In this document: piece by piece, positions 3,001 to 6,000 of the stretch
Numbering within the stretch: position 1 is the first letter of the stretch
How the letters are laid out: every line of letters starts with the position of its first letter
Virus record (IMG/VR): IMGVR_UViG_2923302340_000011
Span: 1 to 24,319 of that record
Source of the DNA: a virus
Lineage: Duplodnaviria; Heunggongvirae; Uroviricota; Caudoviricetes
Reading direction: 5' to 3' (one strand)
Length of the DNA stretch: 24,319 bases
Made by a program: the position numbers

Positions 3001-6000
3001 GATTCAGCTAAAACTTTTGTTCAGGAAACTCTGAAAGATACCTGGGAGTCTGCTGACGAGTGGTTTGTTCACTAATTAGCACGTAAAATCAGTAACGGCT
3101 GGAAATCATTCAATACTCGCACTATCGAAAGTTAACCAGCCAGCCGCAGTATCCTATCATGACAAGTTACTGCGGCTTTTTACTTTTTATATTTAACGGA
3201 TCAACATCCAGATCAGCAGACACGGCACCACCGGCACAGCAAAATCCATCAGGCTTGCCACATCCCACGCGCGCGGATCAAAACCGCCCCACCACGGCAT
3301 ATTCATTCGCTTGCCATGCCCGAACATTTCAATCCAGCGATATTCTGCCTGGGTGTGTTCCCGCGCAATGAAGAACGTACAACCAGCTATCGCACCGTAA
3401 ACCCAGTTTCCGGTAAAAAGGCCAATCAGTACCTGCGCAGCCACAGCACAAAGTGCATGAAGGAAAGGTGTTATATCCATTACTCCTCCTTTATCCGATA
3501 TCGCTTCGGGAAACGGATAACAACTTTAATTCTGACTCAAGTTCATCAACTCTTTCAGTCAGCTTCTGGATATGGTGAATCAGTGGAACACCCAGACGTT
3601 CGTACATTACACCTTCGGCAACAAGGCCATTGCTGGAAATAGCTTCCGGTGCATCATCTTCGTTAGCTGGTCGCCAGTGTACAAACTGAGGGGCAATTTC
3701 TCCTACTTCCTCGGCAATCAATCCGTAGAATCCCCAGTCACGCCTGTCATTTTCGCATTGTGACCTGTACCACACAGGGCGCATCCTGAAAATGAGATCG
3801 GCGTGCTCTGAATCTATTGTCTCTACTGAATCTTTATAGCGGATAGACGATGTTGACCGCAGTACAGACGAAATTGCGGAGTCAGGATTAAGATAAAGGT
3901 TTGCCGCCGCTGTAGTCGTGCCCAATCCCCACAAATAAAACGCTTCACGGCCAGTCAGCGGGTAAAAATCTCCACCATAACGACCGCTTTCCAGAGCGTT
4001 CACTTCCAGTTTGTTTTTCAGCTTATTATCAACTTCAGTTTTTGTGTATCTGGAGCTGATATCCTGCTTTGCACTGGTCATATCAGTCTGAAGCGTTGAT
4101 ACTTTTCCGTTAATTGAGGAAATATCTTCCTTGGCTTTACTGACATCTCCCTTTAGCGTTTTGATGTCATCAGGAATTACTGTCGATGTAGCCATTTGTC
4201 TCCCTCACATCCAGCCACGAAGTTGATGCTCAACAACAATCGCGTATTTATCGAATATTGACGATTTTTTTGCATCATTAATGATGCGCACGCTTACAAA
4301 ATATCCGTCCTCCTTAACACATACCGGCTCGCCATCTTCAGTAAGTTCTCCGGTTTCTTTGTACACATTACCTATCACGTCAATAAGAATATCATCCTGC
4401 ATCGACTCGTCATCATAATAGCCAATGCTCTCCATAAAGGCCGAAAAGTCGGCCCTGTCGACAAATTTGAGTGTTAAATCTTTCATTAGATTAACTCCCC
4501 CACCTGAGCATCAGTCAATGCCTTGTGCCATATTCTGAAATTCCTGACATGACCAAATAAATGGCGTAAACCGGCTGTAGTCTGGCCTCCAATACGGATA
4601 ATTGCGGAGTTCTGAATACAGGACCATGTGGTTTTTGTTTCGCTGGATATGCGCCCGTTACTTACTGAGCACGTAGACTGATCTGATTTTACACGCATCC
4701 CCATAACCATTTTTTCAAGCGATGCGTTTTCGTTTACCCGTCTGTTAGCTCCTCCAATATCGCAATAAGGAAATCCGTCGTAATCTGTTGAACGACCGAA
4801 GCCAAGAATAATAGCCGCTCCGGTTTGATGACCGCCGGTATCAAAAACACGCGGCGCTGCATTTGGCGTTTTATACCAGTTCTTATGTACCTCACAAAGA
4901 ACCGTAAAAGGAAGATTATAAAGATTATTATTAATTGGAACTGTAACTATATCGCTTGCGCGGGTAGCCGCCGTCGTTCCTGAGATAATAAAAGATGATG
5001 CACACGAACCATCCTCAACCTGAGGGGTGGCCAGATAAATATAGTCTCCAGATACGGTTGCTCCGCCCTGCTTAGGAGAATACTGTATCTGAGAACCTAT
5101 TTTTAACTCCCCATCAATTGCCTGAATTGTTGCCTCTGCAAAAATCCATCCGGTAGCTTCGTCCTTTCTGACTCTCGCTGTAATCCTTGAGGCTGCACCG
5201 CCTGTCATATTAATTTCAAGCGTTTGTGTATCAATATACGCATCACCAAGAAAAGTTATTGCGCTACCGTCATATTTATCAAACCGGATACGCAACCTTA
5301 CCTGCAGTTCTGTTTTAAAACGACATGAAGTTGTCACGTATTTATTATCGCCTGAAACATCAACTGACTTTGTTGCAGCAATTGATGCCATATTAATGGC
5401 TGAGGTTTGCCCAATCAGAGAATCGTTGCAGACAAACTTTCCATAAGTAAAGCCAAAACTATCCGTCCCGGTTTCGGGCACATCCATATTTACCGACTTG
5501 CCCCAACTGGCAGGATTTTCCGAATTGAGCATGTAGTTTGTTCTTTGCCCCTCAATAAGCAGGCCATCACGTTCAAATCGTGGCTCGTCAATGGCAGCCT
5601 CTGTAAGCACACCAGATTTATTAATATAGGTTGCTTTCGATGCGCGTTTAAACTTAACCACCTTGTCACCAGGCATCGTTATTTCGTCGTCACCAATAAC
5701 AATCTTTTTATAAGATGGCGAAAAGCCCGTAATCATATCCAGTGAATCGTTAAATGGTATCCACACATCAGGCAGCGGCTGTAAGACATATTTATACGGC
5801 TCCGCAGCCTGGCTTGCGTACTCTCTGGCTGCATCTTCGCTTGCTTTAGCTGCCGTCTGGCTTGCTGCCGATGCTTTCGCTGAGTTCGCAGCCGCTGTTT
5901 CGCTCACCTTTGCGTTGGTTTCACTGGTTTTTGCTGCTTTTTGACTGTTGGCTGATGCAGTGGCAGAAGCAGCCGCCGCGCTTGCAGAACTGGCTGCGGC

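What the first reader, a model, noticed from the sequence alone, without database searches (positions are those of the whole stretch)
3193..4486. Accessory locus downstream of stf: stand-alone chaperone-domain protein, acidic 93-aa ORF and small membrane protein instead of a canonical Tfa
Where lambda has tfa, this prophage has three small genes. One is a 234-aa protein that is almost entirely a C-terminal intramolecular-chaperone (S74-like) domain, normally the self-cleaving tail of a long fibre, preceded by a coiled-coil. The second is a 93-aa acidic protein translationally coupled to stf. The third is a 95-aa two-segment membrane protein. This could be a remnant of fibre-gene shuffling, a trans-acting fibre maturation system, or cargo such as a Cor-like exclusion protein.
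Basis: partly seen in the sequence, partly recalled or inferred. Interest (0 to 1): 0.6.

Follow-up and report, generated by a model that had tools for sequence, protein, structure and literature searches.

The report
Two-part side tail fibre cassette
The three small genes after stf are real, conserved genes of a tail-fibre cassette shared by many E. coli prophages and lytic coliphages; they are a fibre partner protein, a very short second fibre piece with a self-cleaving folding domain, and an unrelated small membrane protein. It is a common, partly described module, not an oddity.

Summary
The minus strand carries stf (4486-6864), a 93-aa acidic ORF whose ATG overlaps the stf stop, a 234-aa ORF and a 95-aa hydrophobic ORF. 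All have good Shine-Dalgarno sites and evolve under purifying selection (dN/dS 0.30, 0.17, 0.20).

The locus is not unusual. At least 80% of it is present in 719 of 5426 complete E. coli genomes. The stf/93-aa/S74-protein trio also occurs in plaque-forming lambdoid phages, Drexlerviridae (BASEL Bas05/06, annotated "putative lateral tail fiber chaperone"), Queuovirinae and T5-like phages (IrisVonRoten gp22-24, SIA3lw ORF42-44).

The 234-aa protein has a conserved N-terminal motif, a heptad coiled coil, a roughly 50-residue tip and a C-terminal S74 chaperone domain with an invariant Ser116/Lys121 dyad. Longer alleles at the same position carry receptor-binding domains, and one (SIA3lw ORF44) is a virion protein. 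The best reading is therefore a minimal distal fibre piece that docks on the Stf, not a gene remnant or a trans-acting chaperone.

The 93-aa family follows this fibre class in 178 phage records, with or without the S74 gene. It probably acts as an assembly factor or subunit, but it is not a Tfa homologue.

The 95-aa protein is a separately mobile gene found next to receptor-binding genes of many phage types. Its function is unknown. Interest is modest.

The parts
4486..6864 (-). stf, the proximal side tail fibre (792 aa as listed; the real start is probably the ATG at 6858). It has an N-terminal tail-attachment domain, Ala-rich helical repeats, a GTA head-spike-fibre-like domain and a C-terminal LamG/galectin-like lectin domain.
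   Evidence: Pfam phage_tail_N at residues 3-133, E 9e-67. NCBIfam GTA_spike_fiber at 436-636. PDB 6tb9 Rcc01080 at E 1.6e-6, and a weak Laminin_G_3 match at the C-terminus. It is 52-60% identical to IrisVonRoten gp22 and SIA3lw ORF42. GGAG precedes the ATG at 6858.
4205..4486 (-). 93-aa acidic protein (pI 4.3), translationally coupled to stf. It is the constant small partner of this fibre class (phrog_1361) and is probably an assembly factor or small fibre subunit.
   Evidence: TAATG overlap with stf and a GGGGGAG Shine-Dalgarno site. dN/dS is 0.30. Homologues sit directly after a fibre gene in 178 phage records and in a 30%-identical metagenomic relative. There is no Pfam, NCBIfam, PDB or PADLOC match.
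3491..4195 (-). 234-aa short fibre protein carrying a C-terminal intramolecular chaperone; proposed minimal distal fibre piece.
4151..4195 (-). N-terminal motif MATSTVIPDDIKTLK (residues 1-15). It is shared by every allele at this position (225-581 aa) and is the proposed docking segment.
   Evidence: M1, T3, T5, I7, P8, D10, I11, L14 and K15 are invariant across alleles. The same motif opens IrisVonRoten gp24, SIA3lw ORF44 and the JenP2 protein.
4016..4171 (-). Heptad coiled-coil stalk (about residues 9-60).
   Evidence: Regular a/d hydrophobic pattern. Stalk lengths in homologues are 34, 41, 48 and 69 residues, which differ by multiples of 7. AlphaFold2 predicts helices at 9-47 (pLDDT about 90) and 52-60.
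3851..4015 (-). Short tip segment ahead of the chaperone domain (residues 61-115). It is highly conserved and presumably forms beta structure in the trimer.
   Evidence: dN/dS is 0.136. It is conserved between lambdoid and Drexlerviridae versions. It aligns with remnants (YGG, LWG, NL.LN) of the larger knob domain of the 343-348-aa alleles. It is disordered in the monomer model.
3494..3850 (-). Peptidase S74 intramolecular chaperone domain (residues 116-234). The predicted self-cleavage site lies between Thr115 and Ser116.
   Evidence: Pfam PF13884 above its cut-off. Ser116 and Lys121 are invariant. The domain aligns to a PDB chain named 'L-shaped tail fiber assembly' (8hqz) and to MyRF. The Foldseek top hits are 7dc3 (E 1.6e-5), then 3gw6 and 3gud.
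3193..3480 (-). 95-aa small membrane protein (phrog_1443) with the invariant loop motif REHTQAEYRW...R...P..GG. It is the last gene of the late operon and an independently mobile gene of unknown function.
   Evidence: AAGGAGG Shine-Dalgarno site and hydropathy profile. 566 homologues, with the motif shown. dN/dS is 0.20. Its contexts in other phage types are shown.
3143..3176 (.). 9-bp inverted repeat (GCCGCAGTA ... TACTGCGGC) between the convergent dinI and 95-aa genes. A T-run follows it on the + strand and an A-run precedes it on the - strand, so it is probably a bidirectional terminator closing the fibre operon.
   Evidence: Read directly from the sequence. The simple scan missed it because the loop is 16 nt.

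Best explanation
The locus is the distal end of a conserved, horizontally mobile side (lateral) tail-fibre cassette with four genes.

1. Stf is the proximal fibre. It attaches to the tail through its phage_tail_N domain and ends in a lectin-like (LamG/galectin-like) domain.

2. The 93-aa protein is made in step with Stf by translational coupling. It is the constant partner of this fibre class. It most likely acts as the Tfa-analogous assembly factor and/or as a small subunit that stays bound at the distal end of Stf. This step is inferred.

3. The 234-aa protein is a minimal allele of the distal fibre protein of this cassette. Its C-terminal S74 chaperone domain would nucleate trimerisation and folding of the short tip and the heptad coiled coil directly upstream, in cis. 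It would then cut itself off at Thr115/Ser116 using the Ser116-Lys121 dyad. This would leave a trimer of 115-residue chains that docks on the Stf/93-aa complex through the conserved N-terminal motif MATxTxIPxDIxxLK. The domain organisation and the catalytic residues are shown. Cleavage, trimerisation and docking are inferred from orthologues.

4. The 95-aa protein is not part of the fibre. It is a small membrane protein gene that moves independently and tends to sit beside receptor-binding genes. It most likely acts on the host envelope, for example in superinfection exclusion or receptor masking. This step is weakly inferred.
For: Genes are real and selected:
- Intact ORFs in 130 related loci, with dN/dS 0.17, 0.30 and 0.20.
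- Strong Shine-Dalgarno sites and translational coupling.

The cassette is conserved:
- It is present in plaque-forming lambdoid phages (IdasGreatGrand, PhiR49_1, HannyBb), Nonagvirus ESCO3 and JenP2, Drexlerviridae KarlJaspers and PeterMerian, and T5-like IrisVonRoten and SIA3lw.
- It is present in 719 of 5426 E. coli genomes.

The 234-aa protein is a chaperone-bearing fibre:
- Pfam S74 above its cut-off.
- Invariant Ser116/Lys121.
- Chaperone fold.
- Stalk length varies in steps of 7 residues.

It is an allele of a distal fibre:
- Proteins of 343-581 aa at the same position share its N-terminal motif and C-terminal chaperone domain, and carry knob or receptor-binding domains in between.
- IrisVonRoten gp24 is modelled as a T-shaped distal fibre attached to proximal fibre gp22, which has a galectin-like C-terminal domain (Humolli et al., doi 10.1101/2024.09.12.612763).
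- SIA3lw ORF42 (Stf orthologue) and ORF44 (S74 protein with the same N-terminus) were both identified in purified virions by mass spectrometry (PMC12752171).

The dependence is asymmetric:
- Every S74 protein with this N-terminus that was checked follows a Stf/93-aa pair.
- Stf/93-aa pairs exist without it in mEp460_4F5, Lambda_4C10, PhiR41_1, L091 and 44 of 44 variant-B prophage loci.

The 93-aa family is tied to the fibre:
- 178 phage records, always overlapping or abutting the 3' end of a fibre gene.

The 95-aa family is independent of fibre type:
- It follows a P22-like tailspike (Gally).
- It follows a P2-like fibre with an S74 end (Leclercia).
- It follows a J-like protein (Comamonas).
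- It is present in Aeromonas jumbo phages.
- It is chromosomal in Aeromonas.
Against: - No experiment or complex prediction shows that the 234-aa protein binds Stf or the 93-aa protein.
- Its mature part is tiny and its tip is highly conserved rather than hypervariable, which is unusual for a receptor-binding tip.
- The authors of the BASEL collection annotated the Drexlerviridae orthologues as 'putative lateral tail fiber chaperone'.
- The 93-aa protein gave only a low-confidence model (pLDDT 54), and fold searching with it was uninformative.
- Its sequence does not co-vary with the last 150 residues of Stf (Spearman rho 0.07).
- No virion proteomics has looked for the 93-aa protein; the SIA3lw gel did not resolve proteins below about 19 kDa.
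- For the 95-aa protein there is only positional evidence. No separate promoter was found for it here, so it may be expressed late rather than from the prophage.
Confidence: 0.6

Rival explanations
1. The 234-aa protein is a detached, trans-acting chaperone. Its S74 domain, or its coiled coil, would help the separate Stf polypeptide to trimerise or mature, and it would not end up in the virion. This is what the BASEL label 'putative lateral tail fiber chaperone' implies.
For: - About half of the protein is chaperone domain and the remainder is small.
- Its tip is conserved rather than variable.
- Public annotation of the Bas05 and Bas06 orthologues calls it a chaperone.
- In lambdoid prophages the 93-aa variant A always comes with an S74 gene (74 of 74 loci).
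Against: - The same fibre class and 93-aa partner occur without any S74 gene in plaque-forming phages and in 44 of 44 variant-B loci.
- Stf ends in a lectin-like globular domain, not a triple beta-helix that would need this chaperone.
- Longer alleles with the same N- and C-termini carry receptor-binding domains, and one is a virion protein.
- From my own knowledge of endosialidase and T5 fibre work (PDB 3gw6, 3gud), this chaperone acts in cis on the segment directly upstream of it.
Confidence: 0.12
2. The 234-aa protein is an independent short fibre or whisker that attaches somewhere other than Stf, for example to the tail tip or collar. It would act like a mini-fibritin, as a sensor or as an aid to fibre deployment.
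For: - Architecture of anchor motif, coiled coil and C-terminal trimerisation domain.
- The tip is conserved across lambdoid phages and Drexlerviridae.
Against: - It occurs only downstream of the Stf/93-aa pair, in phages with quite different tails (lambdoid, T1-like, 9g-like, T5-like).
- This argues that its docking partner travels within the cassette rather than being a tail protein of one lineage.
Confidence: 0.15
3. The small genes are decaying leftovers of fibre-gene recombination and have no function.
For: - The PHROG profile that matches the 234-aa protein best is 1385 columns long and the match is to its C-terminal end.
- Occasional truncated copies exist, such as the 294-aa allele in PhiR47_1 and split ORFs in L088.
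Against: - dN/dS is 0.17-0.30.
- The ORFs are intact in nearly all loci.
- The proteins are 57-60% identical to intact orthologues in virulent phages.
- Catalytic residues are conserved, and Shine-Dalgarno sites are strong.
Confidence: 0.03
4. The 95-aa protein is a Cor- or Llp-like outer-membrane lipoprotein that blocks the phage's own receptor.
For: It lies next to receptor-binding genes in several phage types.
Against: - It has no signal peptide with a lipobox, and Cys11 is not conserved.
- It has two or three hydrophobic membrane-spanning segments.
- It does not match any Pfam, NCBIfam, PADLOC or PDB family.
- Chromosomal copies in Aeromonas lie outside prophages.
Confidence: 0.03

Closest known systems
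Lateral tail fibre module gp22-gp23-gp24 of T5-like phage IrisVonRoten (BASEL Bas32), and ORF42-43-44 of Salmonella phage SIA3lw
   Same: - Same gene order and overlaps.
- Stf is 52-60% identical, and 74% identical to IrisVonRoten gp22 in the last 150 residues.
- The 92-aa gene is homologous.
- The third protein starts with the same motif (MVTKTVIPTDITKLK) and ends in an S74 chaperone domain.

   Different: - The third protein there is 574-581 aa. In IrisVonRoten it carries two receptor-binding domains in a predicted T-shaped fibre.
- The window's allele is 234 aa and has only a coiled coil and a roughly 50-residue tip.
- The T5-like phages also have an extra upstream 'lateral tail fiber assembly protein'.
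- They lack the 95-aa membrane protein gene.
Drexlerviridae lateral tail fibre locus of KarlJaspers (Bas06) and PeterMerian (Bas05): 'lateral tail fiber protein / hypothetical / putative lateral tail fiber chaperone'
   Same: - The three-gene cassette is directly orthologous, including the short (225-231 aa) allele of the S74 protein at 57-59% identity.
- The 92-aa protein is 46-51% identical.

   Different: - These are virulent T1-like phages.
- The cassette lies between the replication and recombination genes rather than after J.
- There is no 95-aa gene.
- The fibre N-terminus differs.
Branched LtfA/LtfB fibres of T5-like phages DT57C and DT571/2 (PMC4728585, PMC10713586)
   Same: A fibre built from two separately encoded proteins, one docking on the other. 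C-terminal chaperone domains of the S74 type are involved (chain 8hqz).
   Different: - Both Ltf proteins are long and bind receptors.
- As far as I know, no small 93-aa partner has been described there.
- No sequence similarity was found outside the chaperone domain.
Endosialidase / T5 pb1 / MyRF intramolecular chaperone auto-processing domain (Peptidase S74)
   Same: Matching domain sequence, Ser-Lys dyad and fold.
   Different: In those proteins the domain ends a long polypeptide. Here it makes up half of a 234-aa protein, so the part it folds in cis is unusually small.
Lambda Tfa / P2 gpG tail fibre assembly proteins (Caudo_TAP)
   Same: The 93-aa gene sits immediately downstream of the fibre gene, and a role as fibre partner is likely.
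   Different: There is no detectable sequence similarity. It is about half the size of lambda Tfa, which as I recall is 194 aa. It partners a lectin-tipped fibre rather than a lambda- or P2-type tip.

Membership tests
Peptidase S74 / intramolecular chaperone auto-processing domain | Sequence match to PF13884 above the curated threshold | tested here: met
   27.1 bits against a cut-off of 22, at residues 116-172. The longer alleles score 47-59 bits.
Peptidase S74 / intramolecular chaperone auto-processing domain | Catalytic Ser at the first residue of the domain, with Lys five residues downstream | tested here: met
   Ser116 and Lys121 are invariant in 23 distinct 234-aa sequences and in every allele aligned. 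In the 42-sequence alignment that includes distant homologues, Lys121 is invariant and Ser116 is at least 90% conserved. They align to S-G-I-E-Y-K of PDB chain 8hqz, named 'L-shaped tail fiber assembly'.
Peptidase S74 / intramolecular chaperone auto-processing domain | Chaperone fold | tested here: met
   In the AlphaFold2 model, residues 122-234 have pLDDT of about 80. The Foldseek PDB top hits are MyRF ICA 7dc3 (E 1.6e-5, probability 1.0), then 3gw6 and 3gud at weak E-values.
Peptidase S74 / intramolecular chaperone auto-processing domain | Autoproteolytic release after trimerisation | not testable with these tools
   This needs protein expression, comparing wild type with S116A and K121A mutants.
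Two-part lateral fibre cassette (IrisVonRoten gp22-24 type) | Proximal fibre with a GTA-spike-fibre-like domain and a lectin-like C-terminus | tested here: met
Two-part lateral fibre cassette (IrisVonRoten gp22-24 type) | Small gene of about 92 aa overlapping the 3' end of the fibre gene | tested here: met
   Identity to gp23 is 35%.
Two-part lateral fibre cassette (IrisVonRoten gp22-24 type) | Third protein with the N-terminal motif M[AV]TxTxIPxDIxxLK and a C-terminal chaperone domain | tested here: met
Two-part lateral fibre cassette (IrisVonRoten gp22-24 type) | Receptor-binding domains in the third protein | tested here: not met
   The 234-aa allele lacks the roughly 110-340 residues of knob or receptor-binding domains found in the 343-581-aa alleles. 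It is a member of the cassette family, but a minimal allele.
Two-part lateral fibre cassette (IrisVonRoten gp22-24 type) | Both fibre proteins present in the virion, with the distal one bound to the proximal one | not testable with these tools
   Virion presence is reported for SIA3lw ORF42 and ORF44 (PMC12752171). Attachment is modelled only for IrisVonRoten. Neither has been tested for the short allele.
Tfa / Caudo_TAP tail fibre assembly proteins | Sequence or profile similarity to PF02413 or to solved Tfa structures | tested here: not met
   No hit for any of the three proteins in Pfam at E up to 1, in NCBIfam or in PHROGs. No hit for the 20-member family scan against Pfam at E up to 0.1. 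No PDB hit for the 93-aa family profile at E up to 10.
Cor/Llp-type exclusion lipoproteins | Signal peptide with a lipobox cysteine | tested here: not met
   The N-terminus MDITPFLHALCAV has no basic n-region and no [ASG]C lipobox. Cys11 is not conserved in the family.

The most novel reading that the evidence does not exclude
The stand-alone 234-aa protein would be the first S74 chaperone that works in trans. It would use its docking motif and chaperone domain to template or cap the separately encoded, lectin-tipped Stf, and would not be a fibre piece itself. The 93-aa protein would be the adaptor between the two.
Probability: 0.12. Interest if true: 0.7.

Novelty: new member of a known kind. 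Interest (0 to 1): 0.35.

Why it matters
This cassette sits in roughly one in eight complete E. coli genomes, including ST131 strains. It also occurs in at least five groups of coliphages, so it is one of the commoner host-recognition modules of E. coli phages, yet none of its three small proteins has been studied experimentally.

The short allele would be the smallest natural substrate of the self-cleaving chaperone domain. It is also a ready-made docking scaffold onto which receptor-binding domains are naturally swapped, which is useful for engineering lambdoid particles.

The 93-aa family would define an assembly partner for lectin-tipped fibres that is unrelated to Tfa.

The 95-aa family is a widespread, strongly conserved small membrane protein with no assigned function. 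None of this changes current concepts.

Tried and rejected
- **Co-variation of the 93-aa protein with the Stf C-terminus.** Two phages suggested it, but across 10 cassettes the correlation with the last 150 Stf residues is nil (rho 0.07). It is moderate with the middle domain (rho 0.53) and weak with the S74 N-terminus (rho 0.30). I do not use it as evidence of contact.
- **Structure of the 93-aa protein.** The AlphaFold2 model has pLDDT 54. Its Foldseek search against viral models found nothing below E 0.02 and no named protein, so it is uninformative.
- **Profile searches against the PDB.** The 93-aa and 95-aa family profiles gave no hits at E up to 10.
- **PADLOC defence models.** Nothing credible.
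- **Fusion proteins containing the 93-aa domain.** A full-library HMM search found only 56 cluster representatives, almost all stand-alone proteins of 90-100 aa. No informative fusions were found.
- **Species-representative genomes.** Only 4 loci were found. Three are in Escherichia genomes and one is a scaffold of a MAG labelled Collinsella, so the family is narrow. A first attempt with a more diverse alignment failed.
- **A promoter for the 95-aa gene inside the 234-aa gene.** None was found.
- **Literature.** No experimental paper on this cassette was found. One search was wasted on phage names.
- **The remnant idea prompted by the 1385-column PHROG.** Rejected, because all full-length homologues are short stand-alone proteins.
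Full report
**Setting**

The window is an E. coli chromosome segment with a lambdoid prophage inserted at dusA. The host dusA gene (542-1579, minus strand) and a pspG-like ORF lie at the left end. They are followed by a tyrosine integrase (1668-2765, plus strand) and dinI (2827-3075, plus strand). The late operon then runs on the minus strand from about 24 kb down to 3193. J ends at 6917 and stf is listed at 6864-4486. Its real start is probably the ATG at 6858, which follows a GGAG.

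**Observation**

The three ORFs are exactly where the finding puts them.
- The 93-aa ORF starts with an ATG that overlaps the stf stop (TAATG), behind GGGGGAG.
- The 234-aa ORF follows after 9 bases, behind GAGGGAG.
- The 95-aa ORF follows after 10 bases, behind AAGGAGG.
- A 9-bp inverted repeat (3143-3176) then closes the operon against the convergent dinI.

The calculated pI values are 4.3, 5.0 and 6.2.

All three evolve under purifying selection among related prophage loci. The dN/dS values are 0.30, 0.17 and 0.20 for the 93-, 234- and 95-aa genes. Within the 234-aa gene they are 0.28 for the coiled coil, 0.14 for the tip and 0.13 for the chaperone domain. They are genes, not chance ORFs or debris.

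**How common it is**

The 1.5-kb locus is present at 80% coverage or more in 719 of 5426 complete E. coli genomes, including ST131 strains EC958 and JJ1886.

The order stf, 93 aa, S74 protein recurs in:
- plaque-forming lambdoid phages (IdasGreatGrand, PhiR49_1, HannyBb, Tritos, 2G7b);
- Nonagvirus ESCO3 and JenP2;
- Drexlerviridae KarlJaspers and PeterMerian;
- T5-like IrisVonRoten and SIA3lw.

The BASEL authors annotated the Drexlerviridae copies as 'lateral tail fiber protein / hypothetical protein / putative lateral tail fiber chaperone'. So the arrangement has been seen and labelled before, but I found no paper that studied it experimentally.

**Stf**

The fibre has four parts:
- the lambda-type N-terminal tail-attachment domain (Pfam phage_tail_N, E 9e-67);
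- Ala-rich helical repeats;
- a domain homologous to the head-spike fibre Rcc01080 of the Rhodobacter gene transfer agent (NCBIfam NF048003; PDB 6tb9, E 1.6e-6);
- a C-terminus with a weak Laminin_G_3 match.

The IrisVonRoten orthologue gp22 is 52% identical overall and 74% identical in the last 150 residues. It was described as a proximal fibre with a protruding galectin-like C-terminal domain. This tip is a globular lectin-like domain. It is not a lambda- or P2-type tip, and that fits the absence of a Tfa gene.

**The 234-aa protein**

It has four parts.
- **N-terminal motif.** Residues 1-15 (MATSTVIPDDIKTLK) are conserved in every allele found at this position.
- **Coiled coil.** Residues about 9-60 form a heptad coiled coil. 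Across homologues the stalk measures 34, 41, 48 or 69 residues, so its length changes in steps of seven. AlphaFold2 predicts helices at 9-47 and 52-60.
- **Tip.** Residues 61-115 are a short, strongly conserved segment. It is disordered in the monomer model, as expected for a part that folds only in a trimer.
- **Chaperone domain.** Residues 116-234 are a Peptidase S74 intramolecular chaperone. The Pfam score is above the cut-off, and Ser116 and Lys121 are invariant with the canonical spacing. The domain also aligns to a PDB chain named 'L-shaped tail fiber assembly' (8hqz) and to MyRF. The Foldseek top hits are the MyRF ICA domain (E 1.6e-5), then the endosialidase and GA-1 chaperone structures.

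About half of the protein is chaperone domain, not 'almost all' of it.

**Why it is not a remnant**

Among public phage records, every homologue covering more than 80% of the protein is a stand-alone ORF of about 220-270 aa. Only the chaperone domain matches long fibres, and those are in Gram-positive phages. In 80 IMG/VR loci that carry the window's type of 93-aa gene, 74 extend far enough to show the next gene. About 50 of them have an intact 234-aa allele and 24 have a 346-aa allele.

**Why it is probably a fibre piece rather than a chaperone for Stf**

- *Alleles carry binding domains.* Proteins of 343-351 aa (HannyBb, ESCO3, JenP2) and 574-581 aa (IrisVonRoten gp24, SIA3lw ORF44) at the same position share the N-terminal motif and the C-terminal chaperone domain. 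Between these they carry knob domains similar to T4 gp34 and S16 gp37, or full receptor-binding domains. The 234-aa allele aligns as a cut-down version that keeps only short elements of the knob.
- *Published model.* Humolli et al. modelled gp24 as a T-shaped distal fibre attached to the proximal fibre gp22.
- *Virion evidence.* In SIA3lw, ORF42 (90% identical or more to the window's Stf over the last 150 residues) and ORF44 were both identified in purified virions by mass spectrometry.
- *One-sided dependence.* Every S74 protein with this N-terminus that I checked follows a Stf/93-aa pair. The pair, however, exists without it in mEp460_4F5 (which has the same int-dinI module as this window), Lambda_4C10, PhiR41_1, a distant metagenomic relative, and 44 of 44 prophage loci carrying the second 92-aa variant.
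- *Cis action.* From my own knowledge of the endosialidase and T5 fibre work, this chaperone folds the segment directly upstream of it in cis.

Together this makes a minimal distal fibre piece the best reading. Trimerisation would be nucleated at the C-terminus. Self-cleavage at Thr115/Ser116 would leave a trimer of 115-residue chains, which would dock on the Stf complex through the N-terminal motif. Docking, cleavage and virion presence are inferred for this allele, not shown.

The conserved rather than variable tip is the main oddity. It keeps the chaperone or cap reading alive at about 0.12.

**The 93-aa protein**

It belongs to a small, narrow family.
- Only 56 cluster representatives exist among 1.84 billion proteins, nearly all stand-alone proteins of 90-100 aa.
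- It has no match in Pfam, NCBIfam, PADLOC or the PDB.
- tblastn finds it in 178 phage records: Drexlerviridae, lambdoid phages, Queuovirinae, Dhillonvirus, T5-like and rV5-like phages. It always sits against the 3' end of a fibre gene.
- A relative that is only 30% identical still overlaps the end of a 622-aa fibre with a LamG match, downstream of J.

It is therefore tied to the proximal fibre, with or without the S74 gene. I take it to be the functional counterpart of Tfa for this fibre class, as an assembly factor and/or a small subunit that stays bound. It might also contribute to the docking site.

Two tests gave no support for a more specific claim. The structure model was poor (pLDDT 54). 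Its sequence does not co-vary with the last 150 residues of Stf (rho 0.07).

**The 95-aa protein**

This is a different kind of gene. Its family has 566 members at 90% clustering and extends to Salmonella, Citrobacter, Leclercia, Enterobacter, Aeromonas and Comamonas. The loop between the hydrophobic regions is almost invariant: REHTQAEYRW...R...P..GG.

Where it is found:
- in E. coli lambdoid prophages it follows this fibre cassette whether or not the S74 gene is present;
- directly after a P22-like tailspike (Gally);
- after a P2-like fibre with an S74 end (Leclercia);
- after a giant J-like protein (Comamonas);
- in Aeromonas jumbo phages;
- as a chromosomal gene outside any prophage in Aeromonas;
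- it is absent from the virulent coliphages that carry the cassette.

It has no lipobox, so it is not Cor-like. I could assign no function. Its habit of sitting next to receptor-binding genes suggests an envelope-directed role such as exclusion or receptor masking, but that is only an inference from position. In this window it has no promoter of its own that the simple scan could detect.

**Verdict**

The locus is an ordinary member of a widespread and already annotated lateral-fibre cassette. The window's copy carries the shortest allele of the distal protein. The remnant reading is rejected, the trans-chaperone reading is unlikely, and the Cor-like reading is not supported.

What remains open is the biochemical role of three uncharacterised small proteins. 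That is of modest interest to phage biologists and to people who engineer host range.

Noticed in passing
window 11737-13395: A low-GC insert (GC 0.38-0.47) lies between tail genes K (10945-11721) and L (13412-14110). It encodes a P22 Ant-like antirepressor (324 aa, minus strand; P22_AR_N and P22_AR_C) and a divergent Arc-like repressor (124 aa, plus strand). This is a moron inside the tail operon.
   Followed up: partly
window 6879-6898 (minus strand): A strong intrinsic-terminator-like hairpin (GGGCGCC agaaat GGCGCC followed by TTTTTTATTT) sits between J and stf. Expression of the fibre cassette probably depends on antiterminated late transcription.
   Followed up: no
window 6856-6864: The stf ORF is listed from a GTG at 6864. 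However, GGAG followed by the ATG at 6858 (MAVQIS...) matches the start of the Pfam phage_tail_N model, so the protein is probably 790 aa.
   Followed up: partly
window 166-2765: This is the prophage-host junction. It holds a pspG-like membrane ORF, dusA (345 aa) and an adjacent divergent tyrosine integrase, so the phage integrates at dusA. The same int-dinI module occurs in mEp460_4F5 and PhiR47_1.
   Followed up: partly
window about 5800-6500: The Ala/Ser/Thr-rich 'AAKTSETNAK' repeat region of stf gives an extreme AT skew (-0.62) and generates long spurious ORFs in other frames.
   Followed up: no
IMG/VR loci L011-L090 and L103-L152: In E. coli prophages the two variants of the small fibre partner sort perfectly. 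Variant A (the window's type) is followed by an S74 gene in 74 of 74 loci long enough to tell. Variant B (mEp460 type) is followed by one in 0 of 44. In Drexlerviridae, partner proteins about equally distant from both variants (45-53% identity) do come with an S74 gene. I could not tell whether this reflects linkage or function.
   Followed up: partly
L008 7001-7309 (Aeromonas rivipollensis chromosome): A homologue of the 95-aa membrane protein is a stand-alone chromosomal gene outside any prophage. It lies about 1.2 kb from two lipid A acyltransferase genes on the opposite strand, which may be coincidence.
   Followed up: no
L098 4501-5541 (PhiR47_1) and L088: A few copies of the 346-aa allele are truncated or split (a 294-aa ORF followed by a 37-aa ORF, and 189- plus 176-aa ORFs). 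The distal gene can therefore decay in some prophages.
   Followed up: no
L007 5738-8154 (Lambda_4C10): IS elements are inserted between stf and the 92-aa gene, and a sitABCD manganese transporter lies downstream of the 95-aa gene. This junction is a hotspot for cargo insertion.
   Followed up: no
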